DNA of 64,000 nt. Origin: Balanoglossus misakiensis (taxonomy: Eukaryota; Animalia; Hemichordata). Numbering within the stretch: position 1 is the stretch's first letter; each line of letters begins with the position of its first letter. Location of the stretch: contig CM082589.2 of NCBI GenBank assembly GCA_040954595.2, positions 10,924,894-10,988,893 of the forward strand. The letters run 5' to 3'. Below are positions 9,241-62,909 of the stretch, piece by piece. The position numbers were made by a program, and so were the translations under genes. The notes under the pieces were generated by a model, which searched no databases, had not been told where the DNA came from, and saw only the letters and a list, made by a program, of their open reading frames with translations.

Positions 9241-9973
9241 TGGGACTAAACTTGACAGATACCCGGAATATTTTCCTATTCAGGATACCTGGTTGCATTT
9301 CCACCTAAAGGCGTCCTATTGGCGTGGAAATTGTATAACTTGAAATCGTTTGACTGGGTGATAGGTATTAATATCTTATGATGTTATAAAACACTTGGCT
9401 CGCCGAAGGTATGGACCGATTATAGCGTCAGTCGTGTCATACAATCTATATGAACGTCATGGGTCAATAAACTTGATGGTCCAATAAAATTCAATGGTTA
9501 GTAAAACTATTGTGTCCAATGTCTGCAGAGTATACTGGCTGCAACATGTGTATGAGTCAGGATTAATGTCTGTAGCCATCAACCCAAAAGGTGAACGTCC
9601 TATTCTCACTAACTTAAATAGGTTTTGCGACCTAGTTGAGTTATAAAAACCTTATGATAAAGTCGACACAATTTCAAGATGACGATGTGCAAATGAGAGT
9701 TCATAAGCTAAAGTAAAGTTCAATGAATTCTATACAAAGTTGAAAAAAGATTGTTTACTAAAGGAAGACATGAAAAAACTGATATCGTCTCTTCATATTC
9801 GTACATGTCCAACTGTTGTGATTTGACCCCTCCCCCCCCCAGGACATGGTACATGAAGCTATTACTTAGTACACACTTAAACAATTGGCATTTGAAGTGC
9901 CTTGCTTGACAGTGTTTAATGCGGTGGTCAGTTGCGTTTATCTCTCGCCACTTCATGCATCATGTCGCCTTAA

Positions 9974-45900: not shown

Positions 45901-48900
45901 TTCGGTTATAATGTAAATAAAAGTAGATCACCCCTGTGGACATGGCAATCAGACATGCATATTCTGACAAGATTTTTTGTTTGTACAAAAAGGCAACTGT
46001 CTCCAAAATACAAAATTACAGATTATGTCACATACCTCAGGGAGATCAATACTAAATTTCAGAGAAAATTTCCCCCCAAATATGCAAATTTCACCATATT
46101 TTGAAGAAACAACTTGTGTCATACCTAGAAACCTGCATAGTCAAAGTAATCTACGAGCTTAGCTTTTTTCTTCCAAAAACAGCAAAAAACTTGTTCCAAA
46201 CTACAAATATGCAGAATTCAACACAATTTGAACACACATTACTTCGCCACCCCAAGAAACCTGCACACCAATTTTAAAAGCACTTGCACCAGTGATTTCA
46301 GAAAAGAAAAATGTTGACAGACATAGGATGACTGAACATCTATCTACCTGTCAGATAACTTTTGCAGTGCTGAGAGCAGAGCTAGAGATTGGTGTTGTCT
46401 TTTTACATTTTAAATCATCACACTTTGCTACTCAAAGCTACTATTCTGCTATGCTTGAGAAATGACTTGGGACCATTTTTGGCAAACAATAGTCACTAAT
46501 CTTCCTCAGTTTATAGTACAATGTACCGACACTGTATTAGTAATGTACTGAAAATGTTCAGACTATTTCTTGTGTCTGCATATGTCTTTAGTACAGAAGA
46601 ATAATCTATCCGGTTGTCATTTCTCTGTTTATTCAGAAATAAACTAGTCTGGGTTGCAACAGTAAAAATCTTAAAATATTCATACCCTTTCTGAAGGATG
46701 TTCAAAACCAATACCTATGTGAAGCATTATATCAAATTTGCTGGGTAACTGTGGATTTATAACTTTTGCTAATTACAGTGCTAACTCACACTGGATGATT
46801 CGACGGTAATTTTAGATTCATATGAAGATTTTTTACCAATAATGTTGAAAAATACAAACAAATGCATCAAAAATAGAAAATCAAAATTAGCTCAAAACAT
46901 ACAGGACTGTATGAGGTAGGCATAAGGTACTTGCATACCAATTTCCAAATCAATCTGACCAGCAGTTGTTGAATTTTGCGAGTTTTGACCAATTTCACAT
47001 TTTCCAGCTAATTTGCATATATTTGGTAATGACATTTTCATGTTAACAAACTCCAATGTACAGCCCAGCCTGCATCTGCACACCAAATATCGAGGTGATA
47101 TGCACAACGGTTTTCAAGTTTTAGATGTGGACGGACATACAGACATACATCCATACAAACAGACAGACATACTGTAAAACACTTTATTTTCGCGAGCAAT
47201 TAATTTTCGCCAAATACGCGAGAGCCAAAATAACGTGAAAATAAAAAGTCACGTAAATTGTTTTTGAAGATAACGATGCAGTGAATGAAATAAGAGAACG
47301 CGAAAATTAATACTCGCGAAACAGTGGCCTCTCTCGATATCGCGAAAAATTTAACTCGCAGTACATCCATACATAAATACAGACGCAACTGATTCCATAA
47401 GGCCCATGGTACATACCATATGGGACCTAAAAACTGCAGAAGCTACACAAAACATTAATACTGAAAACATGGCAAACAGTTGTTGCTAACGGGGTTTTAA
47501 ATCTCCCTTATAGATATTTTTGAACTCCCAATTTATGATTATTGACTGTTTGATTGATTAGTTGTTGCACAAATGATAGTATTATCAAAGTAAATAATAT
47601 CTGTGAGAAATTTCTTTTCATATTTATTTGAATATGGATAGGGTAAGATGGGGGTTAAACAAAACTACATTTGTTCAAAAGTGGCAAAAACACAAATATG
47701 CAAAAATCACTATAATTGTACACCATCTTACTTAAATCACTACAAGGAACATTCCTGTCAAAGTTCAAAGCAATCTGACAAGCGCTTTCAGACACAGCGA
47801 ATTTGATAACCATCTACAAATATATTTTTATTTTTTAAACAATTCTTTTACAACACCTTACTTGGGTTACCCCCTAGGAATCTGCATTCTGAGCAAAAAT
47901 TACAAAATTGCTCAAAATTATAAATATACCAATTTCACAACCATTTGCAATTTGAACAAAAACTATGGCTTTCAGAAAGGAAGATTTTTCTTTACCAATA
48001 ATGCAGTAAAAGACAAAACAATAAAAATAGAAAATTCATAATATTAGCTCAAAACAAAACATACAGGACTGTATGGCATTTATTGACATTTATAAGAATA
48101 TGGACAGGGTATGATAGTGGGGGGGGAATTATAAATTCCAAGGGGGTCATCAATTTTTTGTCATAGCTTTTTGGGGCCATAGAAAAAATAACCTAAAAAG
48201 TAGGAAATCCTACGTCCCCCTAAGCTTTCATTCTGGCCAACAACTTTTTATGAAGGCTTCTGCAGTTGTTAAAAACAGATTGCCTGCTATGTTAGACTAT
48301 CAATCTATAGAGGGGATGAAAAATGTCCTTTTGTCAAGTGTCTGGATTTTGATAACTTCAACAGGTAAAAATATATTTGTAGATGTTTATCAAATTCGCT
48401 ATGTCTGAAACAGTATGCTTGCAAATGTATTAATATAGTCAGATAATATGAATAGTGAAGATAGCAAAACAAACAGGTTTATGCTTATAGCCATAACTTC
48501 TATTAGTGATGTACATGTTGTACTTAGCAAATAATTGTTATGATCAACTTGGTTTTTATTGCACAAGATCTTTTTATTGCATCCATGTTTCGTTTCATCC
48601 TGGATAATAGTCTGTCTAAATAAGTTAACAGGCTTGATGAGGGTTATTTTAAACAGTGTTCTCAAAAAACCTGCAATGTCATGCCCTATATTTATAAAGT
48701 TGAGGAGAGGTTGTATTCCTAGCAGGATGTTGAAATCATTGGAGGACAAACCCTGCCAGTACCAAAAGTTGCTGGGTGTTATAAATGTTTGAGTAACCCC
48801 CCCCCCCCCCCTTCCCCAATAACACAATATATACTAAAACATTTTTACAACATCTTACTCAGTTTACCCTTAGGAATATGCCTACCAAATCAATCTGTCA

Positions 48901-49950
48901 TGCAGTTTTAAAGAAAAAAAAATGACCAAAAGTGGCAAAAATTGCTCAAAATTAAAATATGCAAATTTTTCAACAATTTGAACAAAACTTTGGTTACTCA
49001 GACAACCATTAGAAGCTTCATACTAAAATTCAAAGAATGAGGCCTATAACTTTAAGAAATGATGATTTCTTTACCAATAATGTGGAATAATACAAAAAAT
49101 GCATAAAAGATTTTTGGCATAAAAAATTAAAAATCGATAATATTAGCTCAAAACATACAGGACTGTTTGAGGTAGACATAAGGTACATGCATACTGATTT
49201 TCAAATGAATGTGACCAGTGGTTGTTGAGTTTGAGTTTTGACCAATTTCACATTTTCCTAGCTAATTTGCATATTTTTGGCAATGACAGCTTCATTTGAA
49301 CAAACTCCAATCTTCAGCCTGGCCTGCATCTACACACCAAATATCGAGGTCATATGCCCAGCGGTTTTCAAGTTTGTGATGTGGACGGACATACAGACAT
49401 ACATACATACATCCACCGATATCATAAGGTCCCATGGTAAAGCAAATGGGACCTTACAAAACTATGATAACTCAGATCACCTATGAAGCTTCATACTAAA
49501 TTTCAAATAAGTCAGCTGATCAATTCCAGAAAAGCAGATTTTCTACCGATAATGTGGAAAGAGACAAAAAATACATAAAAAATCGAAAATTCACATTAGC
49601 TCACAACATATAGAACTGTGTGAGGTTAACATAACTTACAGGAATACCAATTTTCAATTTTGAAAGCAATTTGCTCAGTAGTTGTCGAGTTCCCGAGTTT
49701 GGACGAATTTGACACTTTCCCAGCTAATTTGCATATTTTGGCAATGACAAGTTCATTTTGACAACTCCCACTTAATGCCCTGCCTGCATCTCCACACTAA
49801 ATATCAAGGTCACATGCCAGTGGTTTCCAAGTGTTTGATATTGATAGACATACAGACAAACATCCATACAGACATCCATATATACAGGTGCTACTGATCC
49901 CATAAGGTCCCATGGTATAAATACATATACCTGCACCAAATGGGACCTAA
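42912..49950 (+). mobile_element. Cluster of degenerate HINE-like (tatgcaaatt-rich) elements
   Basis: 42912-43280 repeats at 44003-44400. Recurrent ends of (catac/agac)n plus hairpin agg(t)cccat..atgggacct at ~47400, 49425 and 49900, also at 56235 and 56760. Confidence 0.65.
44742..45474. mobile_element. Kolobok-like non-autonomous element, TTAA TSD
   Basis: ttaa|ggtggcactgcatgaaa ... tttcatgcaatgccacc|ttaa. Confidence 0.87.
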
Positions 49951-52910
49951 TAATTCTGATAAAATGCCTACATAGTAAGTTTCAAAACCAATTGTACCTT
50001 CAACGTCCTTGGACAACAATGGCTAATATTACTTGCCAAGGGCGACTAGAATTTTGGGGGCCTGATGCAATTCTGATACATGTACTTCATGATTTAGAGA
50101 TATTGTGAAAATCCTGTCAACCGAATTACAGGGAAATCAGATTTTCCATGTAAAATCATATCACCCAAAAATGTCAAGTGTCGAAAATAATTTTGAAACA
50201 AAAAGTCTACTCAAAATCATACCAAAATTTAAATTTTAAAGCAGTACGTTAGGCAAGCAATTTGAGAATGAAGAAACTTACAAAAAAATTATAAATTGAA
50301 AATAACTTACAAATGCCGTACACAAACTTACAATCACTACCATATTACTGTACAAGTTAAAAGGACATTGTACCAGCAGAGACATTGCGATCGAGCAATC
50401 CCCAAGATATACATGACATGGTCTAATTACAAATATTGAATATGTAAAATAGGTACACAACACTTCCATTCTTTCAGTACAGTCAGCTGCTTGTTAACAA
50501 TAGGCATGTAGCTATTTCATCAACACCTTTCAATCATTAACTGGTTTATCTAGTGTCCCATGTCAGGGGACTTGCCCCCACCCCATGATAACTTTGAGCG
50601 GCGACGGTTAAATTTATCCTCCCCAACATACTGGTAGTTGAGTTAATTTGCTTTTGCTGGGTTCATAAAAATGCAGCTCTGAGCTCTGTATTTTATAAAA
50701 TTTTCTTACGTGGGAGGGGGACACCCCTTCCCACACCCACCCCCTTCAATTCCCGGTTTACAATGTCTCCCAACACAGAATACAAATACTTAAAAAATAA
50801 AAACCATGTTCAGTTTTAATACCCACTGATGAGGGGAAACATCAGTTTCAAAGTCTTTTCATGGGAGCGCTGTTTTTCTTTTTTACAAGATAGATAAGTG
50901 ATGTGTTTTGCTCTGTGAAAGAAAATGGGGGGGGGGGATTTTAAAATTTTGGCAGTTCAGAAGGGGGTGGGGGATTTGAAAATATTTCGGGTTGTGTACA
51001 GGGGGGGGGGGGGCATGTGAAAATTAGCAGTAAAAAAATTGAATTTCCCCCCCCCCCCCCCCCCCCCCCCCGCCTCCCCGATGTAGAGGTGTTTGTGAAT
51101 GGAGCCTAAGCTAAAGCTAAAGTGATAATGGGTCATAACAGACAAAATAACAAAATGTGAAAAACATTTAATGAGTTTAATATGCTAACTACGGAGACAG
51201 ACATGTTTGACCAAAGCATGAAATACACAAAATGTATCATTTCTTCCACCTCTTACTACAGTGGGTTGTAGACTTTTCGCCCAGAATGCAATGTGATTTG
51301 ACCCCCTAGCGCAAAGTGAAAACCTATTTAAGGCAGCCAGAATTTTCTGCATAGTATGACGGAAACATTTGTAAAGTCATGGCTAGCGTGGGCTGGTAAG
51401 TTTATATGGGGCTCTCCATGATAACCAGTTGTGGCTTACCACCACCATAATTTTGAAAGGGCGACTTCACTATTTGATGGGAAAAGGTAGCCTTTACAAA
51501 CAAGCTATGGAGCATGTATACAGCAAGTTGTGCTTACCGGAAAGCGGTCTTGGATCAGGCCTAGGTATTCTCTTCCTCCTCCGGCATACGTTGAAATGCT
51601 GTGTTTAAGACTGTGAATCAAATATATGCTTATCAATTAGTAACCAATCAACCTTGCTTTAGAATTATTTGGGCCATACTAATTAGTGAAAATATGCAAA
51701 ACATGGTATAATATAGGGTCAGACTGTGCTGCGATAATGTACGTGGAATACGAATCAGAGAAATCTGTAACAGCGATCTTGAAACTCCATTTACATCAGT
51801 ACTGCAGTAAAGTGGTCCACATGGGTATACCACAAACATGGCAGTTAGGTGACAAGTGAAACTGACATCATATCTGTAAACGACAGGTGTACACACACTT
51901 TGACATCTACGTAACACTGTACAATGATTTCTTAATGTTTGTTGTGAAAATGAAACTTACATTTGATCCACCTCACTTTTCATACAACTGATTAGCGCAA
52001 GAATGTAAATTGTTGGCAATTATAAAACATTTATTTTACTATAGAAAAGTAAGCCTTTACATTTAAACTTTGAATATCAGTATACTAAAATGTTTCAAAC
52101 GTGGCTGTCAGTATATCTCATGGCATGGTGGCAGAAGTACATGTTGTTACCAGGGAAGACACAGTGAACATAGACAAGCGCACTAGTCGCTTGGTGATTT
52201 TTCATCTAGATTCTCAAAACTTTCTGTGCATTTGGTAGCTTTGAGCAAGTTTCTGGTACTGAGCTGAGTTTCGAATTTGGAACTGGGCTGCTTTGGCTTT
52301 GATTACCATGGGCCAATATGATCTTATGCACACATTTTTGAAAAAAACTCCAGCCTGTTTGTGTCGTGATCTATATTTTTCTTTGTGGCCTAAGGTATTG
52401 TTTTATTTCACTATAAACAACATTACTTTCCTTCATGTGTCTATATATAATAATAGATCTCTTAGCCAGTTTGATGAAGCATAGTGTTGGACTAGCACAC
52501 TTTTAGCCAAAATTACGGTATCTCCCCGTGTATTGGTATGGGAGTAATTTCTAGCTATATGGTTAAGGAAATGCATCCAAATTTAATTTATGCTTCACAT
52601 GAAGATTTGAACTTGACCATTTAATTCATGTCATCACGATCATATCACAGGCAATCGAGGCTAGAATTCGAAGGAAAAAAGTATTGATAACTGGAAGGTG
52701 TAAATTAGTTCGTAGACATACATTGTTTCCTATTGTTTCGGTTGTGCCACGCCCGATAAAAGCAAATATACAGCAAGTCATGCTTACCATTGAGCGGTCT
52801 TAAACTCGCCCCAGACGAGGAAGAGAATCCCGAGTTGAAATGCAGACAATTTCAGGCAGCATCTGTGAATCAAATAGATATAGAAGTTAGTAACCAGTCA
52901 TAGTAGCTCT
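49465..52910 (+). repeat. Segmental duplication copy 1 (paralogue of 56342-59710; homology extends patchily to 47666/55527)
   Basis: Colinear blocks, e.g. taactcagatcacctatgaagc 49468/56342, caatggctaatattacttgcc 50017/56977, agttagtaaccagtcatag 52885/59685. Confidence 0.93.
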
Positions 52911-55044
52911 AAGTTGGGTGTAAAAGTCTAAGTTGGGTGTACTAACTCTCCTTGTTAACAGTAACTTTCAAAGAAACTGAGCAATTGGTTAAAAAGATTT
53001 GCTATCCAAAAACAAAGAAATTTACAACAAACTACCTAAATATTGACAACCAGAATTTAATCAAAGTTGCACATACATGTACATGTGTTATGAAATTGTT
53101 AACTAACTTCCAAAGCAATCAGGAACCAGATATTAACTGAATATGCTCACGTGCAGTACTGTGATTGGTTGACAGAATAACAAGATTAGAAAAACCAGTT
53201 TTAAACCATTTTGGTTTATAGTGTATATGGTGTAAGGGTTGTGTGTTGCACCATTGTGAAATGTAAACATGTTTGTGGAATTGTTGCCTTGTCAATTTTT
53301 GTAAGGGGTTATGAGTCATGTACCCCATCCTGAACTGCATAAAAATAATAAGTCTATGGAATTCTAAAACTCTTTGATCAAAAATGGCAAGAAATACACC
53401 AAAAAGTATGAATATTTCACCAGATTTCAACAAATCTGATTTCTGTTCATGCCTAAGAACCTCTTTAACAAGTTTCAATAAGGAAGACATTTTGGCAAAC
53501 AACAGGAAATTCAGACAAATCTGACTGATATCACATATATGAATTCCCATTCAAAGTTTCCAACCAATTGGACTTGTGGTATTACCGAAGACTATTTGGC
53601 CAAACCCTGCAGAAATTCCCAAAAAATACAATTATGCAAATTTCATTACAATTTGATCATATCTGACTGAGATCACCCCTAGAAACCCAAATACAAAGTA
53701 TCAAAACAATTGCACCTACATTTCACAGGATTGGATTTTTTGGCAAAAACAGGAAATATTGCCCAAAAATGCATTTTTGCAAATTTCACCACCGTTTGCA
53801 CAAATGTGATTCAGGTAAGCCCTATGAACCTCCATACCAAGTTTCCAATCAATTGGACATGTAATTTCAGAGAAAAATTTTTTTTAACAAAAATGCAGAA
53901 AATTCCCCAAAAAATTCATAAAAAATAGGAAACGCCAGATACTGACTCCACCTGAACAAAATCATACGAGGTCTTCCCAAAGTACTTGCACACCAATGCA
54001 CGCCAATTTTTAACTTAATCTGATCCGCGGTTATTAAGTTTTTCAATTTTGACTATTTGAACATTTTTCCAGTTAATACCAGTATGCATTTTTTCGCAAT
54101 AACAATTTCTATGTACACACTAAATATCAGTAGTTTCAAGTTTTTGATGTTGATGGACATACACATACATACATCAATACATTAAGACGAAACTGATCCA
54201 TTCACAAAATACATAATTCTGTATGAGGCACACATACAGACATACATAGCCGACGGACACCAACTTATGCTATAAGCTGACATTTATATACATGTTAGCC
54301 AAAAACCAAAATCAACCTCAAAATAGACATTAAAATATATTGCACCACCATGAGAAGACAAATTCATTTTTTGACAAATTTTCTGGGGCGTCATTGATAT
54401 AGCATGGCATATTGTCAAAGTACGTAGGCTCTGTGATAAGATTCCATACACACAAAATGGTAACCTTGGAAGTCCAGCTGACGTAGTTATGCAATGGCGT
54501 CTCGTGTATTCCGTCGCCAAAAAATCATCGTAAACTAATTGATAGTCGGGGTCACAATTCAAGACGACTTTCTCTAAATTCTTTATGAATGGATTAAATC
54601 GAAATCGAAATGTTGACGTATGACGTACGGAATGAGATCTGAACAGACATTCAATGTTATCATTCTCGCTCGATCACATATTGGGTAGGCCATCTAGCAA
54701 TCGCTATATAGTATTGGCGATAACAGACTGTCTATAAACACACAAAACGGATTTTACTGTTGAGTGTGATCAACCGCCATGTTATTTTTCTCTGAACAAT
54801 AGACAAATAGAAAGCCTGGTGACATTTTGAGATTGACTGCGTGAGGACCACAATATGCGTGAATCATTTACGGTTTGTCTTGATGAATGGGTCACGTCAT
54901 AGTCATAACGCGGATTCGGCTGCACGCCAACTATCTGCCATATTGTCTCAACTAACTTACTCGTAAGTAGTTTCAAACTTCATTTGAAAAGAGTATTCGT
55001 CTGACGGTCCTGTAGATTAACAATTTACGCTCTATGAAGCAACT

Positions 55045-55457
55045 AAACAACGTTAGCTTCCTTGTGGATTCACGTAGGGAAGTTATTCGTAACGACGGGT
55101 ACAGCGTCTGAGCATGGACAGAACCACGGCAATATCGCCAGGAATGTCTCATTTCACAGCGCCCTCAAACAGTCGATCTCCTCAAACTATCGTTTCCACT
55201 GGTCATATATGCAGCATTAACGAAAGCTCTCATAGACAACCATGTAATAGAAAAATTAAAACTTTAATAACTTCATTAATATCAAAGCCACACCCACCAA
55301 AACCTTTTCAGTTCTTGCCATATGATATCTGAACCTGTGTACTAAATTTGGTTGAAATCGGTTCAGCGGTTCTTGAGATATCGGGTATACAGACAGACAC
55401 ACACATACACAGACATCGCTAAACTATAAGCTCACGTGATTTTCAGGTGAGCTAAAA
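55045..55457 (-). mobile_element. HINE-like element
   Basis: Hairpin cttcc..ggaag near 55057, (acag/ac)n microsatellite, terminal hairpin agctcac..gtgagct followed by aaaaa. Confidence 0.65.
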
Positions 55458-57386
55458 ATTGGGTTACCCCTAGGAATATTCCTACCATATTTCAAAGCCA
55501 TCAAAAAAGCAGTTTCAAAGAAAAACACATTTGTTCAAAAGTGGCAAAAACACAAATATGCAAACATCTCTATAATTGTACACCATCTTACTTCAATCAC
55601 TACAAGGAACATTCCTGCCAAAATTCAAAGCAATCTGACAAGGGTTTGAACGGTTTAACAGAAAACAGTTTTTGACAAAGATTGCAAAAAATATCCCCAA
55701 TAACACAAGCACGCAGTTTTAACCATTTTTATGACATCTTCCTTGGGTTACCCCTGGGAATCTGTCTACCAAATTGCAAAGCATTCTGACCTTAATTGGC
55801 AAAATTGCTCAAAATTATAAATATGCCTATTTTACAACAATCTGAACAAAAAATATGGTAACTCGGACCACCCATAGGAAGCTTCATACTAAATTTCGAA
55901 GGAGTCGGACTATCGCTTTCAGAAGTGAAGATTTTTTTTTACCAATAATGTGGAAAAAGACAAAAAAAATTAATAAACATTAGAAAATTCATAATATTAG
56001 CTCACAACATACAGGACTGTATGGGGTTCATTGACATACCAATCTGACCAGTGGTTGTCAAGTTTCTGACTTTTGACCAATTTCACATTTACACAGGTAA
56101 TATTTTGGCAATGACAATTTCATTTGAACAAAATCCCATCTACAGCCCCGCCTGCATCTACACACTAAATATGGAAGTGATATGCCCAGCGGTTTTCATC
56201 CATTCACTCATACATACAAATGCAACTGATTCCATAAGGTCCCAATCGTATATATGTACATAAACCAAATGGGACCTAAAAATTGCTCCAAAATTATAAA
56301 TACGCAATTTTTGGCAACAATTTAAACAAAACTATGGTTGGTAACTCAGATCACCTATGAAGCTTCATAATAAATTTCAAACAAGTCAGCTGATCAATTC
56401 CAGAAAAGTAGGTTTTTACCGACAATGTGGAAAGAGACAAAAAAAATGCTTAAAAATAGAAAATTCACATTATTAGCTCACAACATGTAGAATTGTGAGA
56501 GGATACCATAAGGTACATGCATACCAATTATCAATTTTGAAAGCAATTTGCCCAGTAGTTGTTGAGTTCCCAAGTTTTGACGAATTTGACACTTTCCCAG
56601 CTAATTTGCATATTTTGGCAATGACAACTTCACTTAGACAAACTCCCATCTACTGCCCTGTCTGCACATTAAATATCAAGGTGAAATGCCAGTAGTTTCC
56701 AAATGTTTGATGTTGATGGACATACAAACATCCATACATACAGGTGCAACTGATCCCGTAAGGTACCATGGTATAAATACATATACCAAATGGGACCTAA
56801 TAATTCTGATAAAATGCGTACATACGTACATACATACAAGTCAGCAATAAAGAGACGGGATAGTGGGCTGGCACTGAGTGTCTATTTCTATTGCAAATTA
56901 TAAACATGCAGCAAGTGTAAAAACCACATGTACCTTCAACGTCCTTGGACAACACATTTTTGTAACTTTCCCAGATCAATGGCTAATATTACTTGCCAAA
57001 GGCGACTAGAATTTTGGGGGCCTGATGCAAGTCTGATACATGTACTTCATGATTTAGAGATATGATGAAAATCCTGTCAACCGAATTACAGGGAAATCAG
57101 ATTTTCCATGTAAAATCATATCACCCAAAAGTGTCAAAAATAATTTTGAAACAAAAAGTCTACTCAAAATCATACCAAAATTTAAATGTTAATGCAGTAC
57201 GTTAGGCAAGCAATTTGAGAATGAAGAAACTTACAAAATAATTTATAAATTGTAAATAATTTACAAATGCCGCACACAAACTTACAATCACTACCATATT
57301 ACTGTACAAGTTAAAAGGACATTGTACCAGCAGAGACATTGCGATCGAGCAATCCCCAAGATATACATGACATGGTCTAATTACAA

Positions 57387-57700
57387 TTATATTATACCAG
57401 TATATTGATGGTGTAAATCACGCTATTTGATTGGTCGAGACACGACACGTGACCGTGATATATTAGCCATATACCACAGTCATATATCATAGTCAAAGAA
57501 AATGCCTTTTCAAAATGTTTTATGCCAAGTTTCAATATACTGGCATAATATAATAGCAATAAAACACCCCCAGCCATGGTATACCACTCGATTTTGACCA
57601 GTTCAACTCCATATACGCACTCGCTATCGCTCGTGCGTATATGTCGTGAACTGGTCAAAATCTCGTGGTATACCATGGCTGGGGGTGTTTTATTGCTTAA
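57387..57700. mobile_element. Crypton-like non-autonomous element, no TSD
   Basis: Absent at the paralogous site (ttacaa|atattg, ~50430). ~65-bp hairpin arms agcaataaaacacccccagccatggtatacca..ctcgctatcgctcg..tggtataccatggctgggggtgttttattgct, then taa. Confidence 0.75.
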
Positions 57701-58998
57701 ATATTGAATATGTAAAATATGTACACAACACTTCCAGTCTTACAGTACAGTCAGCTGCTTGTGAACAATAGTCATGTAGCTATTTCATCAAATTTACAGC
57801 CCAAGTCTTGCCTATACAATTCTCCCTACTTTAAACACGTTTTAAGCTACCCTAAATGAGTGATGAAAATCTCATACGGTCGATAATTTCAAGATGGCCG
57901 ATTTTTGCCATGTTAAAGAAATGGGAGTTCATAAGCTAAAATGATGATGGGTCATTCTTGAACTTTTTAACAGAAAAAATAGCAAAAGTGAAAAAAAGTT
58001 TAATATGCTAACTACCGAGACAGAAATGTTTGACCGAAGGAAGTCATGAAATACAGTAAACATATCATTTCTTCTATCTCTTACTACAGTTGGTTATGGA
58101 CTTTCCGCCCAGAATGCAATGAGATTTGACACCTAGCGCAAAGTGAAAAACCTATTTAAGGCAGCCAGAATTTTCTGCATAGTATGACGGAAACATTTGT
58201 AAAGTCATGGCTAGCATGGGTTGGCAGGTTTATGGGACCCGCTCAGGTTCCCTCGAATAACACATAATGCATGATTGGTGACTGATTATTGTTTATTTGT
58301 TGATTTTGTCACATTTTCAGAAAAATCCCTATCAATCAGTCATATTTGTTTGGCCTTGCTATACAGCGCAATATGAATCTTGTTGACTGAAATTGTTGAG
58401 GATAGTGGTACATAAAGGTTACCAATTGGAAAATATTAAAATGATTATTAGTGGTGTCCAACTCTTCATGATAACCAGTTGTGGCTTGCCACCACCATAA
58501 TTTTAAAAGGGTGACTTCACTATTTGATGGGAAAAGGTAGCATTTACAAACAAGCTATGGAGCATGTATACAGCAAGGTGTGCTTACCGGAAAGCGGTCT
58601 TGGATCAGGCCTAGGTATTCTCTTCCTCCTCCGGCATACGTTGAAATGCTGTGTTTAAGACTGTGAATCAAATATATGCAAATATTAATTAGTAACCAAT
58701 CAACCTTGCTTTAGAATTATGTGGGCCATACAAATTAGTGAAAATATGCAAAACATGGTATAATATAGGGTCAGAAAAAATTTCCAGCCTATTTGTGTCA
58801 TGATTTACATTTTTCTTTCTGGCCTAAAGTATTGTTTTATTTCACTCTAAACAACATTACTTTCCTTCATGCGTCTAATATAATAACAGATCTCTTAGCC
58901 AGTTTGATTAAGCATAGTGTTGGACTAGCACACGTTCAGCCAAAGTTAAAGTATCTCCCTGTGTATTGATATGGGAGTAATTTTAGCTATATGGTTAA

Positions 58999-59345
58999 AG
59001 GGACAAAGTCTCTCTGTCGCTGTCCTTTTTCCATTAATTATGTTTGATACAAGACACTGTTTATGTCAATGTACATTTGGATATATAGTGAATAAATGAT
59101 CAACCACACAAAACTTCCATCCCGCTTGTATGATATGAGAGTAAAAACTCGCCCAAAATGAATAAATGGTAAAGAACGATTATTCATTTTGGCGAGTATT
59201 TTTACTCTCGTGTCTACAAGTGGGACGGAAGTTGTGTGTGGCTGAACGTTCATTCACTATATATCTACATGTAGAATAACAAACGGTGTCTTGTATCAAA
59301 TATAATTAATGGAAAAAAGGGCAGCGAGAGAGAGACTTTGTCCCT
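58999..59345. mobile_element. Foldback MITE FB350, full length, TSD shown by an empty paralogous site
   Basis: TTAA at 58995-58998 and 59346-59349; empty site tatatggTTAAggaaatgcatcc at 52556-52578. Confidence 0.95.
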
Positions 59346-59865
59346 TTAAGGAAATGCATCCACATTTATTTTATGCTCCACGTGAAGATTTGAACTTGTG
59401 AGTTGTCCATCTAATTCATGACATCACGATCATATCACAAGCAATCGAGGCCAGAATTCGAAGGGGAAAAAACAGGTACATTGTATTGAAAGCTGGAATA
59501 TGTAAATTAGTTCGTAGACATACATTTCTTCCTATTGTTTCGGTTGCAACACCCGATAAAAGCAAATATAAAGCAAGTCATGCTTACCATTGAGCGGTCT
59601 TAACCTCGCCCCGGACAAGGAAGAGAATCCCGAGTTGAAACGCAGACAGTTTCAGGCAGCATCTGTGAATCAAATAGACATAGAAGTTAGTAACCAGTCA
59701 TAGAAGCTCTGCGTGGCAGGGCTGCGTGTTAACGGCTATACCATAGCTCCCACTGGTAGCTTATAACAGTCTCAATGGTGCCAAAAATCTCCCCAACAAC
59801 AAAACCAACCCTGGTCAGTTTATTCGTTATCGCTTTGCCTTAAAAGTTATACTGTAGTGTGTTAC

Positions 59866-60281
59866 CACAGGGGGCTCCTCCCTCCGCGATTTTATTGTTT
59901 GTTTGTTGTTGTTGATTGGCATAATAAACAAATACATATTTCTTTATTAATAAATATGGTTTGTTGACATGTAAGTGTTAGGGTATATTCAACAGTTAGG
60001 GTTACTGTTGGCATTTTTTTCGATCCACGGCCCCGGGCATCACTAAGCCACAGGGGGTGGGGGGGGGGGGGGTTTGGGGGGGTGATGCCGGCCATGGATC
60101 GAAAAAATGCCAACACTAATTCTAACCGTTGAATATACCATAACCTGTCAAATATACCCTAATAACCTAACCCTTACATGTCAACAAACCATATTTATTA
60201 ATAAAGAAATATGTATTTGTTTATTATGCCAATCAACAACAACAAACAAACAATAAAATCGCCTAGGGAGAGCCCCCTGTG
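59866..60281. mobile_element. Foldback MITE with 7-bp TSD (P-superfamily-like, tentative)
   Basis: gtgttac|cacagggggctc ... gagccccctgtg|gtgttac; long inverted arms around a G-rich loop. Confidence 0.88.
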
Positions 60282-62909
60282 GTGTTACGGTACCACCTGC
60301 TCCACAATAACAAAGCTGACTCGAGCCAACGAACGACGTACAATTTACTCGCACGGTGTAATATAACGCACAAATTCCATGCGACTGTGAGTTTACTGTT
60401 TGGTGCTGTAACGCTTCCCAAAGTCAGAATTTCGATGTTGGGAGGACCCTCTCGCCCTACCACGACCAGTTTTTGCTAGAAGGAGTGTACATGTACTTGT
60501 AAAATAACATTAAATGCCATGCTTACCAGAGAAACGACATCATCAAGCATGGAGGCGACCGGGACCTCCATGCTTGATGAACGTCAAAGCTGCAATGATT
60601 TTTCAAATGCAATGGTCAGCGGTACGAGAACGAGGCACCAGCTGTGCGTCAATTATGCAACTTACTTACTACTCAATCAGAATCCTGCTTCAACATGACG
60701 TAACACTAATTAGTCAAAGAATGCAATGCAACGTATGTGTGCGGGTGGAGAATGCGCCTCACGTCAATGCAGACACACCAGACACACACACTGAAATGCA
60801 AATTGAGGAATTATGTCACGGTGTTCTTTGGAAGTGCGAATGAATAAAATATTTCGTTTTCTTCAGTGTTTTTGTACTACAAAAAAAATTGCTAAAAAAC
60901 GACTAGCAAGCGCTTATGCAATAAAATACAAATAAATATAATTATCGCCAATTGGAAATGGAACGTCAATCCGCATTTGTCAAAAAATAACAGAAAAGAC
61001 AAAGGAGCTGAGACGTCCTAAAATAAAAGGAATGACCTCTCTGTTCTGACCTGTATGAGGAAGCCCTATTGTAATACGCAATATGTCGGATCATGCTACC
61101 ATCCGCCATTCTGATTGGACGAGAGATCAATCCATCGATACGAAAGTACTCAATAGAGCACTGCTAAAACTGGCCCCTGAACTAATAGCATGCAACAGGG
61201 AAAACGTGACTAAATAAAAAAAAAATATAGCTGATAAATTTACGGACGGCCGGTTTATTTTTTAACTGCTCTATTGGAACTGTTGTCACTGTCATGCACG
61301 ATGCATGTCTTGTCATTGCGCACTCGTGTTAACATTCATCAGAGCGCCTTTCGATCAATTCGTAACGTTTACATTAGACTCGAGTTCATTTTCGTTATGA
61401 AAATGACATTGATATACACAAAGTCGATTACTGATATAAAATAATAGCAATAACCCTAACCATAGATTAGGCTATAGCATTCCGGTATTTTTTTCAATAT
61501 CACTCAGGAAGGATTCTATAACATTCTGTTTTGTATCGGGATGTATAATTTAATATCCATACTACAAAACAAATATCAGCGGTAACTCAGAAAATATTGT
61601 TGAAAATTTGTTCTCTGTAGGCCTAACCATGGTAAGATAATGCAATGCCGGTAAGTATTTTGGAAGTCAAGGTTGCATTGTATTGTCTGGTGTTCAAATA
61701 ATCACAAACATCCCGGAAGACTAAATTCTTTCTGTCAAAACCACTTCTGCAACGACAAGAACTTTCAGGGCAGGCAAAACCATGGCATGAAGACGATATG
61801 AAGTCGATGAGTTAATGTTATGTTGAACCCGGCCACTTTACGTATCTTAACTATTCACACATTGACCATTCTATAATTCTCTCCCTTTTGATGTCTTCTT
61901 TGTGGTTTGTTTGTAAAAATGTTGCCTGTGTTGAAACTTGACTACTTGTCACTTTTGCCTACCAAGAATAATATGACCAAAAGGGGTGGCATGAAATTCT
62001 AGACTGTAACAAAACTCGATTTCATGACCCAAAGTTTGATTTTATGTGTTTTTGGTTTGGACGTGGCAAAGACATGTAAATTCCGACCACCTATACACCA
62101 TCCATACATGTATGAATCGACATCATTTATTGCACGAGAGACTTCAAGCAAGCATTCCATCATCGCAAAAGGACAAAGAGAGAGCGACTTTGTCTCTTTA
62201 AATTAATTTAGCAAGTTCAAAGTGAATGCCCACATGAAAACCTTTACTCAGCAATTTTTTTTGTAATTAATAAAACTAGGTTTGGTATGTTTTTGCGCTT
62301 GTTTTATTTTCCTTTTGTCTATAAATAGTCGTATATTTTAAAACAGCTAAAATGAGTCAAATGGGGCATTTTTCCATCCCACCTCATCCTAGCTAAGAGC
62401 TTCAGTGCCGGTCACCTCCACAAAATTAATTTACCACGAACAAATTGAAATACAGCCAATCGGAAAAAGTGCGCCACCACATGGTCATTTGAAGACTTTT
62501 ATGCTCTCTTCTGGCCGTAAACGCATGTGATCTGGAATAAATCGAACATCGATCGTGTTTTATTTATTTTCACCACCAGCGAAAATCTACGACGGCCCAA
62601 CCGCAGATTATTGCTGCTCCATACAACAACCGGCTTAAACTGTTCTGTGCATGTGTTTTGTGTTCTGGTGGCGTTTGCGGGTCTGAGACGTCATTTGTAG
62701 AAGGCCCTATTCGTTTTCTACCAATAACTTTTACCAACCATGCTAGAACTATTTCGTTTTCTTTGACGACGCTTGACACTTTTCTTGCTTTGTTGTTAGT
62801 ACATGTAGTTTGTTTGTTCGTTACGTCTGTTACTGGGGTTCTTCACTTGTAGTCTGGTTACACTATGAGATAGGTGCCGTTAATCAGAATTTTTGGTAAG
62901 GAAGGTTTG

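What the first reader, a model, noticed from the sequence alone, without database searches (positions are those of the whole stretch)
51538..59662. Paralogous micro-exon pair with mutually complementary cores; hairpin closed only by splicing
SEEN: cassettes B (52788-52862, 59588-59662; 75 nt) and A (51538-51610, 58588-58660; 73 nt) have alignable same-orientation flanks (tata(c/a)agcaag..tgcttacc, agcggtctt, gttgaaa(t/c)gc, ctgtgaatcaaata, ttagtaacca). On the minus strand these read as tttgattcacag acceptors and gtaagc donors. The ~24-nt cores are inverted relative to each other: B RNA cucgggauucucuuccucgucugg pairs with A RNA ccggaggaggaagagaauaccuag (3 mismatches, 1 GU). Joining B1 to A1 also creates guuuaagac-cgcucaau-g|ucuuaaac, a 9-bp stem closed at the exon junction (7 bp plus a mismatch in copy 2). 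The two core differences between B copies (C>U, U>C) both lie opposite G and keep pairing. A is identical in both copies. INFERENCE: a spliced hairpin RNA (endo-siRNA/miRNA-like precursor or regulatory lncRNA) built by exon duplication plus micro-inversion. Caveat: B-A is also open in one frame (CCLKLSAFQLGILFLVWGEFKTAQCLKHSISTYAGGG.., signal-peptide-like; 3 of 5 B differences are synonymous), though the homologous parts of A and B are then read in different frames.
Basis: partly seen in the sequence, partly recalled or inferred. Interest (0 to 1): 0.78.

Follow-up and report, generated by a model that had tools for sequence, protein, structure and literature searches.

The report
Intron-split RNA hairpin in an animal
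An invertebrate genome carries a row of small, related exon-like pieces with no shared reading frame, two of which have mirror-image 24-base cores and would fold into a microRNA-like hairpin once the intron between them is removed; this likely precursor layout is reported from plants, but no RNA data could test it here and a chance inversion remains a close rival.

Summary
A (73 nt) and B (75 nt) are paralogous minus-strand cassettes with branch point, acceptor and GT donor, and are present twice through a ~7 kb tandem duplication. Their cores match 20 of 24 in inverted orientation (0 of 3000 shuffles). One in-place inversion of the core after a local duplication explains the layout.

New here: a third, older cassette C (60527-60641) lies upstream and holds the longest perfect hairpin in the window. 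No reading frame runs through the array.

Spliced B+A is predicted to fold with roughly Drosha-type spacing, but the Dicer-excised part is 56 nt, which is rare in deuterostomes. 'Closed only by splicing' is overstated, because the core pairs equally well across the intron. The pairing-preserving differences are not significant (about 0.14), and total folding energy outside the core equals shuffles. For function: A is invariant between copies, conservation is blocky, and the 9-bp junction stem is unlikely by chance.

The five RNA runs laid gave no sign of this organism, so expression is untested. Best reading: a non-coding, intron-split small-RNA precursor (0.42). Rival: neutral by-product of a micro-inversion (0.33).

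The parts
60527..60641 (-). Cassette C, 115 nt: likely an older paralogue and upstream exon (possibly the first exon)
   Evidence: Best non-self acceptor of 3148 and best non-self donor of 3719 for A/B flank similarity, same strand, 115 nt apart; joint chance about 0.001; singly weak (nhmmer E 0.8 and 0.18)
60540..60580 (-). Perfect 16-bp hairpin inside C (arms 60540-60555 and 60565-60580), extending to about 21 bp
   Evidence: Longest of 7 perfect hairpins of 12 bp or more (loop up to 30) in the window; z -5.4, 0 of 200 shuffles
60582..60766 (.). Four TGACG words in a CpG-rich stretch: possible promoter (CRE-like label recalled)
   Evidence: 4 in about 185 nt against 0.22 expected per 200 nt; CpG obs/exp 1.1-1.2 at 60.5-61.5 kb; picked after the fact
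59588..59662 (-). Exon candidate B2 (75 nt); core 59611-59634
58995..59349 (.). MITE-like inverted-repeat insertion in the B2-A2 intron (927 nt)
   Evidence: Copies at about 9970, 11045, 22965 and 23646; DNA depth 95 against 3-6 nearby
58588..58660 (-). Exon candidate A2 (73 nt), identical to A1; core 58611-58634; second YAG acceptor 12 nt inside
52788..52862 (-). Exon candidate B1 (75 nt); core 52811-52834 (predicted 5p arm 52813-52834); 6-bp inverted repeat at 52803-52808 / 52831-52836; junction-stem arm 52797-52805
51611..52787 (-). Predicted B1-A1 intron (1177 nt) separating the two arms
   Evidence: GT-AG ends and branch motif
51538..51610 (-). Exon candidate A1 (73 nt); core 51561-51584 (predicted 3p arm 51558-51579); junction-stem arm 51603-51610
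47657..59710 (.). Tandem duplication (about 47.7-52.9 kb and 55.5-59.7 kb) that doubled the B-A pair but not C
   Evidence: Self-BLAST; 90 of 1452 aligned non-exon sites differ, 6.2%

Best explanation
C, B and A are related exon-like cassettes with no shared reading frame, likely spliced into one non-coding minus-strand RNA, in which B and A have inverted-complementary 24-nt cores and are predicted to fold into an intron-split hairpin that would be cut by Drosha and Dicer into a ~22-nt small RNA. Shown: paralogy of A and B, splice-site motifs, the inverted core, the tandem doubling, the lack of a continuous frame. Inferred: a ~140-nt unit was duplicated long ago, and the core of one copy flipped in place, likely by template switching at short inverted repeats. 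That made B a 5' arm and A a 3' arm. Predicted: the arms can pair across the intron, but only splicing brings the inter-arm region from 0.9-1.2 kb down to 56 nt (44 nt with A's second acceptor), a size that could be processed. The cut would fall 13 nt above the lower-stem base (5p from B29, 3p ending A53). The invariant A arm is the likelier guide. No target is known.
For: Splice motifs are kept in all four cassettes and faintly in C; the eight + strand acceptors I printed look ordinary and unlike this word. The inverted core is far beyond chance. A: 0 of 73 differences against 6.2% background, P 0.009; about 0.04 against the local 10 of 239 (hand calculation). A/B conservation is blocky: 35 runs against 44.4 expected, P 0.014, simulation 0.017; no homology in the 300-nt flanks. 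So the split looks old while the core stays at 20 of 24. With the core fixed, 7 lower-stem pairs are matched by 3.1% of 1500 flank shuffles, lower plus apical pairing by 0.7%, and the 9-nt junction complement by 0.16% of 5000. The 13/11-nt lower stem and a UG at -14/-13 (read) fit the Microprocessor rules in PMC7174388 (passages). A bulge above the duplex followed by more stem is the layout of long invertebrate pre-miRNAs (PMC12553114 section 14). The adjacent paralogue C holds the window's longest perfect hairpin. Plant precedent: miR444 and miRtop14, where the intron must be removed for processing (PMC11706861 passages).
Against: There is no RNA evidence of transcription, splicing or small RNAs. 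B is no better conserved than background (5 of 75, P 0.68; A+B 5 of 148, Fisher 0.20). The B differences are not significantly structure-preserving (22% and 28% of 600 simulations; 9 of 24 core sites tolerate a transition, so two of two is about 0.14), and one breaks the junction stem. Total energy with shuffled flanks equals the observed (185 of 400; copy 2 is worse than most, 357 of 400). All basal pairs (12%) and apical pairs alone (25%) are not significant. The three core differences shared by both B copies are true mismatches, not wobbles. Only 1 of 13,788 deuterostome miRNA homologues has a Dicer-excised region over 50 nt. In mir-989 a bulge moved to the 3p arm blocked processing, and here the larger unpaired stretch is 3p. 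By eye there is no apical UGU, no CNNC at +16-18 and no GHG. The cut site was chosen after seeing the fold, and all the geometry tests are post hoc. Rfam has no match at the cassettes.
Confidence: 0.42

Rival explanations
1. The cassettes are real or decaying non-coding exons (lncRNA or 5' UTR), and the complementarity is an unselected by-product: duplicate an exon, flip its middle by template switching, and the two copies pair automatically. The conserved blocks are splice signals and enhancers, and C's perfect hairpin is a second template-switch product.
For: One in-place inversion explains the layout. B1 has a 6-bp inverted repeat around the core. Template switching inverts spacers between short repeats and makes perfect hairpins without selection (PMC8604942 abstract; 10.1101/2023.04.19.537475 abstract). 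B evolves at background rate; covariation and energy tests are null. Overall A/B identity after un-inverting is 97 of 125 (78%), close to the core's 83%.
Against: It needs the core to stay constrained until a fairly late inversion, given the blocky divergence. It does not explain the 9-nt junction complement, the lower stem or the invariance of A except as coincidences.
Confidence: 0.33
2. The duplex works in the pre-mRNA. B-A pairing loops out the intron or hides A's purine-rich core (enhancer-like; label recalled) and its acceptor, so controlling which of B2, A2, B1 and A1 are included.
For: The core pairs equally well unspliced, and the junction stem can cover A's acceptor G. All B/A combinations pair about equally. 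The donors of A and B sit in a predicted 7-8-bp hairpin whose variable bases lie mostly in the loop.
Against: No product is known for which inclusion of these frame-less exons would matter. No coding exon with a credible Pfam hit lies at 39-63 kb.
Confidence: 0.1
3. The cassettes are untranscribed relics of an old repeat or transposon that carried splice-like ends.
For: The region is full of repeats. C is degenerate. Copies under about 80% identity would have been missed: A did not lay on B.
Against: In the whole contig set of DNA run X1 only the two window copies lay at 80% or more (10 pieces, depth 6 for A and 6.5 for B), against depth 95 for the MITE. Homology ends close to the splice signals.
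Confidence: 0.09
4. B and A are coding micro-exons of a small secreted or membrane peptide.
For: One B-A frame is open and 3 of 5 B changes are synonymous in it. An unchecked note reports a peptide-precursor gene of alternating micro-exons elsewhere in this genome.
Against: The B+A unit is 148 nt, not a multiple of 3. C-B gives a stop just before that frame, A-B stops after 20 codons, and the longest ATG frame of the joined exons is 35 aa. The shared blocks are identical at all codon positions, and in the homologous frame A has two stops. There is no Pfam hit. The only HMMER hit among 1.84 billion representatives is a low-complexity repeat protein, E 4e-4.
Confidence: 0.06

Closest known systems
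Intron-split plant miRNAs: monocot MIR444 and Solanaceae miRtop14 (PMC11706861 passages; 10.1101/682591 passages)
   Same: The two arms of one duplex lie in separate exons; the intron would have to go before processing.
   Different: Here it is an animal and no small RNA is shown. The arms arose by a same-orientation exon duplication plus a core inversion, not by partial inverted duplication of an antisense target gene. No target or sense exon was found at the locus.
Long-loop invertebrate miRNAs such as Drosophila mir-989 (PMC12553114 abstract, sections 7 and 14, Fig. 1 legend)
   Same: A Dicer-excised region over 50 nt, a bulge next to the duplex and further stem beyond it.
   Different: These are reported from protostomes and sponges and are almost absent from deuterostomes. 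Introns within the hairpin were not mentioned in the main text. The bulge is on the 5p arm in mir-989.
Splice-site-overlapping miRNAs such as miR-34b (PMC3794580 abstract)
   Same: A hairpin tied to a splice site in an animal.
   Different: There splicing destroys the hairpin and competes with Microprocessor; here splicing would complete it.
Template-switch micro-inversions and de novo hairpins (PMC8604942 abstract; 10.1101/2023.04.19.537475 abstract; PMC5453318 search listing only)
   Same: Spacer inversion between short inverted repeats, and perfect new hairpins; a route to new miRNAs.
   Different: Those events act within one locus; here the complementarity is between two duplicated exons about 1 kb apart.
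Drosophila hairpin RNAs / endo-siRNA loci (search listings; properties recalled)
   Same: A non-coding fold-back transcript, here with tandem doubling of the unit.
   Different: The duplex here is only about 24-29 bp, enough for one small RNA and not a phased series.

Membership tests
Intron-split miRNA (MIR444 / miRtop14 type) | 5p and 3p arms in different exons with an intron between | tested here: met
   At sequence level only: cores in B and A separated by predicted GT-AG introns of 1177 and 927 nt
Intron-split miRNA (MIR444 / miRtop14 type) | Spliced transcript is made | not testable with these tools
   No RNA holder listed; 5 of the 22 label-matched RNA runs were laid (about 1% of each) and gave no sign of this organism
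Intron-split miRNA (MIR444 / miRtop14 type) | Discrete mature and star reads forming a duplex with 2-nt overhangs | not testable with these tools
   No small-RNA library was offered
Natural-antisense miRNA (MIR444) | Lies antisense to an exon of its target gene | tested here: inconclusive
   No credible Pfam exon among 148 frames tested at 39-63 kb; the cores have no other match of 66% or more in the window; exons under 50 aa or UTRs could be missed
Canonical animal miRNA (Microprocessor substrate) | [quoted passage not shown] | tested here: inconclusive
   29 pairs over B16-B52, 13/11-nt lower stem with a 5x4 internal loop; lower-stem pairs matched by 3.1% of shuffles; cut site chosen post hoc; rule from PMC7174388
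Canonical animal miRNA (Microprocessor substrate) | At least one of basal UG, apical UGU, mGHG, CNNC | tested here: inconclusive
   UG at -14/-13 if 5p starts at B29; the other three absent by eye (sequence; mGHG position recalled; CNNC at +18 of A1 depends on an unknown next exon). One motif can suffice (PMC10954719 passages)
Canonical deuterostome miRNA | Dicer-excised region of at most about 50 nt | tested here: not met
   56 nt with the main acceptor; 44 nt if A's second acceptor is used; 1 of 13,788 deuterostome homologues exceeds 50
Known Rfam RNA family | Match at a family's gathering score | tested here: not met
   5 matches at E<=1 in the window, all far below gathering, at inverted repeats, none at A, B or C; only the unspliced DNA was scanned
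Conserved structured RNA | Covariation beyond chance | tested here: inconclusive
   Only two copies; 22-28% of simulations do as well; no orthologues available
Drosophila-type hpRNA | Long duplex giving phased siRNAs (recalled) | tested here: not met
   Duplex of about 24-29 bp
Protein-coding micro-exon array | One open frame through the repeated exons | tested here: not met
   148-nt unit; stops at the C-B and A-B joins

The most novel reading that the evidence does not exclude
An animal small-RNA gene whose 5p and 3p arms are separate, paralogous micro-exons, born by exon duplication and a 24-nt inversion and gated by splicing. It sits in an array of hairpin-bearing exons (C self-contained, B/A split) in which a tandem doubling allows different arm pairings. 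Standard miRNA finders that need both arms within about 100 genomic bases would miss this whole class.
Probability: 0.3. Interest if true: 0.78.

Novelty: new variant of a known kind. Interest (0 to 1): 0.5.

Why it matters
In the papers I could search, intron-split miRNA hairpins are described only in plants (the library lacks most subscription papers, so this is not proof of absence). A case in an animal would add a route for miRNA birth (direct exon duplication plus micro-inversion), put splicing upstream of Drosha instead of in competition with it, and imply that spliced small-RNA precursors are being missed in invertebrate annotation. The prediction is cheap to test because junctions and read ends are given to the base. 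If the neutral rival is right, the locus is a neat but ordinary example of how a micro-inversion mimics a selected RNA structure.

Tried and rejected
No whole genome is held for this window, so no genome-wide search was possible.

Expression: no RNA holder listed. The two holders, X1 and X2, are one sample and cover introns evenly, so they are DNA-like and may be the window's source; they are not independent support. Five of the 22 RNA runs added by species label were laid at about 1% each. They gave only a few partial reads, mostly on a poly-G run, and none on the high-copy MITE in the two runs laid across it. This is no test of expression either way.

Protein searches: the A frame found nothing among proteins of 28-90 aa. 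A control with a real Sushi exon of this window also found nothing, so these blanks carry no weight. P0001 was rejected as a low-complexity repeat.

A two-motif pattern scan of metagenome contigs gave 2 hits, both lacking core and donor, taken as chance. Earlier findings by place and by sequence showed nothing for A, B or C.

Plus-strand exon readings of A and B were set aside because the acceptors are poor (read). 'Closed only by splicing' was rejected. C as a canonical pri-miRNA was rejected: about 22 bp of stem and no proper lower stem. 10.1101/2021.08.05.454923 and PMC6007596 (passages) gave nothing usable. No supplementary files were read; hemichordate miRNA lists in supplements or databases could bear on whether either core is already a named miRNA.
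Full report
Setting. The window is from an intron-rich animal. A + strand gene with three CUB, three Sushi and two EGF exons lies at 21.9-30.1 kb (150 of the 164 frames listed were scanned), followed by satellites and a repeat-rich stretch. At 39-63 kb, 148 frames gave no credible Pfam hit (2 weak DUF matches below cut-off). Earlier unchecked notes call this genome a probable acorn worm; I did not test that.

Observation. On the minus strand each has a TACTAAY branch motif, the same 12-nt acceptor word (4 of 4 window matches) and a GTAAGC donor (6 of 28 minus-strand GTAAG sites at 39-64 kb are GTAAGC; four are these and one is C). Eight + strand acceptors printed are ordinary pyrimidine tracts, so the shared word reflects paralogy and not a species consensus. 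The B core matches the reverse complement of the A core at 20 of 24, reached by 0 of 3000 shuffles and 0 of 3406 window tiles; the duplex energy of -46.7 kcal/mol is matched by 1 of 1000 shuffles and 8 of 3406 tiles. Spliced B1+A1 folds at -48.3 (z -2.4, 2 of 200) and B2+A2 at -47.2 (z -1.9, 7 of 200); each exon alone is unstructured (z about +0.5).

History. The B-A pair is doubled by a tandem duplication of about 7 kb whose copies differ at 6.2% of 1452 aligned non-exon sites. A and B themselves are an older duplication. Scanning all in-place inversions of B, the best (B29/30-52/53) raises the alignment score from 110.5 to 149.5; a version bounded by B's own 6-bp inverted repeat scores 144.5. 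After un-inverting, 97 of 125 columns match between branch point and donor motif, and the 300-nt flanks show no homology (P 0.53, 0.88). So direct duplication plus one micro-inversion accounts for the complementarity with no selection needed. Spacer inversion by template switching is a documented mechanism (PMC8604942 abstract).

A third cassette. Profiles built from the A/B flanks rank one other site first on both sides: the acceptor at 60641 (best non-self of 3148, leaving aside A's own inner acceptor) and the donor at 60527 (best non-self of 3719), on the same strand and 115 nt apart (joint chance about 0.001). Each alone is weak (E 0.8, 0.18), and C's branch motif is degenerate. C holds a perfect 16-bp hairpin, the longest of 7 in the window (z -5.4), and sits among four TGACG words in CpG-rich DNA, so it may serve as a first exon. 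The predicted order is C, B2, A2, B1, A1. C was not included in the tandem duplication.

Coding? The open B-A frame exists, but the unit is 148 nt, C-B places a stop just before that frame, A-B enters a frame that stops after 20 codons, and the longest ATG frame of the joined exons is 35 aa. HMMER against 1.84 billion representatives gave one low-complexity repeat hit. A non-coding transcript or UTR is more likely.

Dispersed repeat? In DNA run X1 (whole contig set, 80% threshold) 10 pieces lay on 51440-52960, all explained by the two window copies apart from short partial hits in the intron; depth over the exons was about 6 against 95 on the nearby MITE. Copies below about 80% would be missed, and X1 may be the window's source.

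Is the duplex selected? For: A is identical between copies (0 of 73, P 0.009 against the whole duplication, about 0.04 against its own flanks; and hand calculation). A/B matches are clustered in blocks (35 runs against 44.4, P 0.014), which suggests an old split with a still well-kept core. With the core held fixed, the lower stem (7 pairs against 0.9; 3.1% of 1500) and the 9-nt junction complement (0.16% of 5000) exceed shuffles, jointly 0.7%. Against: B diverges at background rate (5 of 75); its changes are no kinder to the fold than 22-28% of random sets; two of two tolerated core transitions has probability about 0.14; one change breaks the junction stem; and total energy with shuffled flanks equals the observed (185 of 400 and 357 of 400). 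All basal pairs (12%) and apical pairs alone (25%) are not significant. All these tests were designed after seeing the fold.

Role of splicing. The core pairs with mean probability 0.73 in both unspliced precursors against 0.75 and 0.74 spliced; the junction stem goes from 0.49 to 0.97 in copy 1 and from 0.05 to about 0.6 in copy 2. Splicing therefore does not close the hairpin, but it shortens the inter-arm region from about 1 kb to 56 nt. In tomato miRtop14 the intron must be removed for processing (PMC11706861 passages), and unstructured inter-arm regions block processing of fly mir-989 (PMC12553114 section 14).

Fit to Microprocessor. Taking the stem base at B16-A64, a cut 13 nt up on the 5' side and 11 nt on the 3' side gives 5p from B29 and 3p ending at A53 with a 2-nt overhang, about 24 nt below the apical bulge, with UG at -14/-13 (rules from PMC7174388 and PMC10954719 passages). 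The other three motifs are absent by eye and the lower stem is loose. The 100-nt precursor with a 56-nt Dicer-excised region is outside the deuterostome norm (1 of 13,788 over 50 nt). A's second acceptor would cut this to 44 nt at the cost of the junction stem. It works like an intron-split or long-loop miRNA precursor; it cannot be filed as a miRNA.

Expression. Untested. No RNA holder was listed, and the five label-matched RNA runs laid showed no sign of this organism.

Literature. 'Intron-split' with miRNA and Drosha returned 0 papers; related searches returned plant cases and animal splice-site-overlapping miRNAs only. PMC11706861 states that, before miRtop14, the layout was known only from MIR444 (passage). 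The library is partial, and I read no supplements.

Verdict. The structure is real and its origin is explained. Function as an intron-split small-RNA precursor is my best single reading (0.42), ahead of a neutral by-product (0.33), splicing control by the duplex (0.10), a repeat relic (0.09) and coding exons (0.06). Novelty: a new variant of a known kind if true. Interest 0.5.

Noticed in passing
window 51599 and 58649 (-): A has a second YAG acceptor 12 nt inside the exon, resembling a tandem copy of the acceptor word (8 of 12 alike); using it gives a 61-nt exon without the junction-stem arm.
   Followed up: partly
window 51512-51540, 52762-52790 and the copy-2 equivalents (-): The 5' splice sites of A and B lie in a predicted 7-8-bp hairpin with the conserved intron word at +10 to +17; three of four variable bases in +1..+17 fall in its loop. 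Significance not tested.
   Followed up: partly
window 21.9-30.1 kb (+): Multi-domain extracellular gene: 3 CUB, 3 Sushi, 2 calcium-binding EGF exons, with a possible lectin-like exon near 17.6-18.0 kb that had no Pfam hit. No continuation was found at 39-63 kb.
   Followed up: partly
window 6.5-8.6 kb (-): Three frames that look like a broken non-LTR retrotransposon (reverse transcriptase and endonuclease-like pieces; recognised by eye).
   Followed up: no
window 30.8-39.1 kb, 41.07-41.86 kb, 62.9-64.0 kb: Tandem arrays: a long array whose translated unit is 38 aa and which is open in frames on both strands for up to 700 codons, a ~50-nt array and a ~169-nt array.
   Followed up: no
window 58995-59349, with copies near 9970, 11045, 22965, 23646: MITE-like family with long terminal inverted repeats; the source of four of the five weak Rfam plant-miRNA matches.
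   Followed up: partly
window 59871-60277 and 57547-57705: Further long inverted-repeat elements (arms of 116 and 59 nt), the first inside the predicted C-B2 intron.
   Followed up: no
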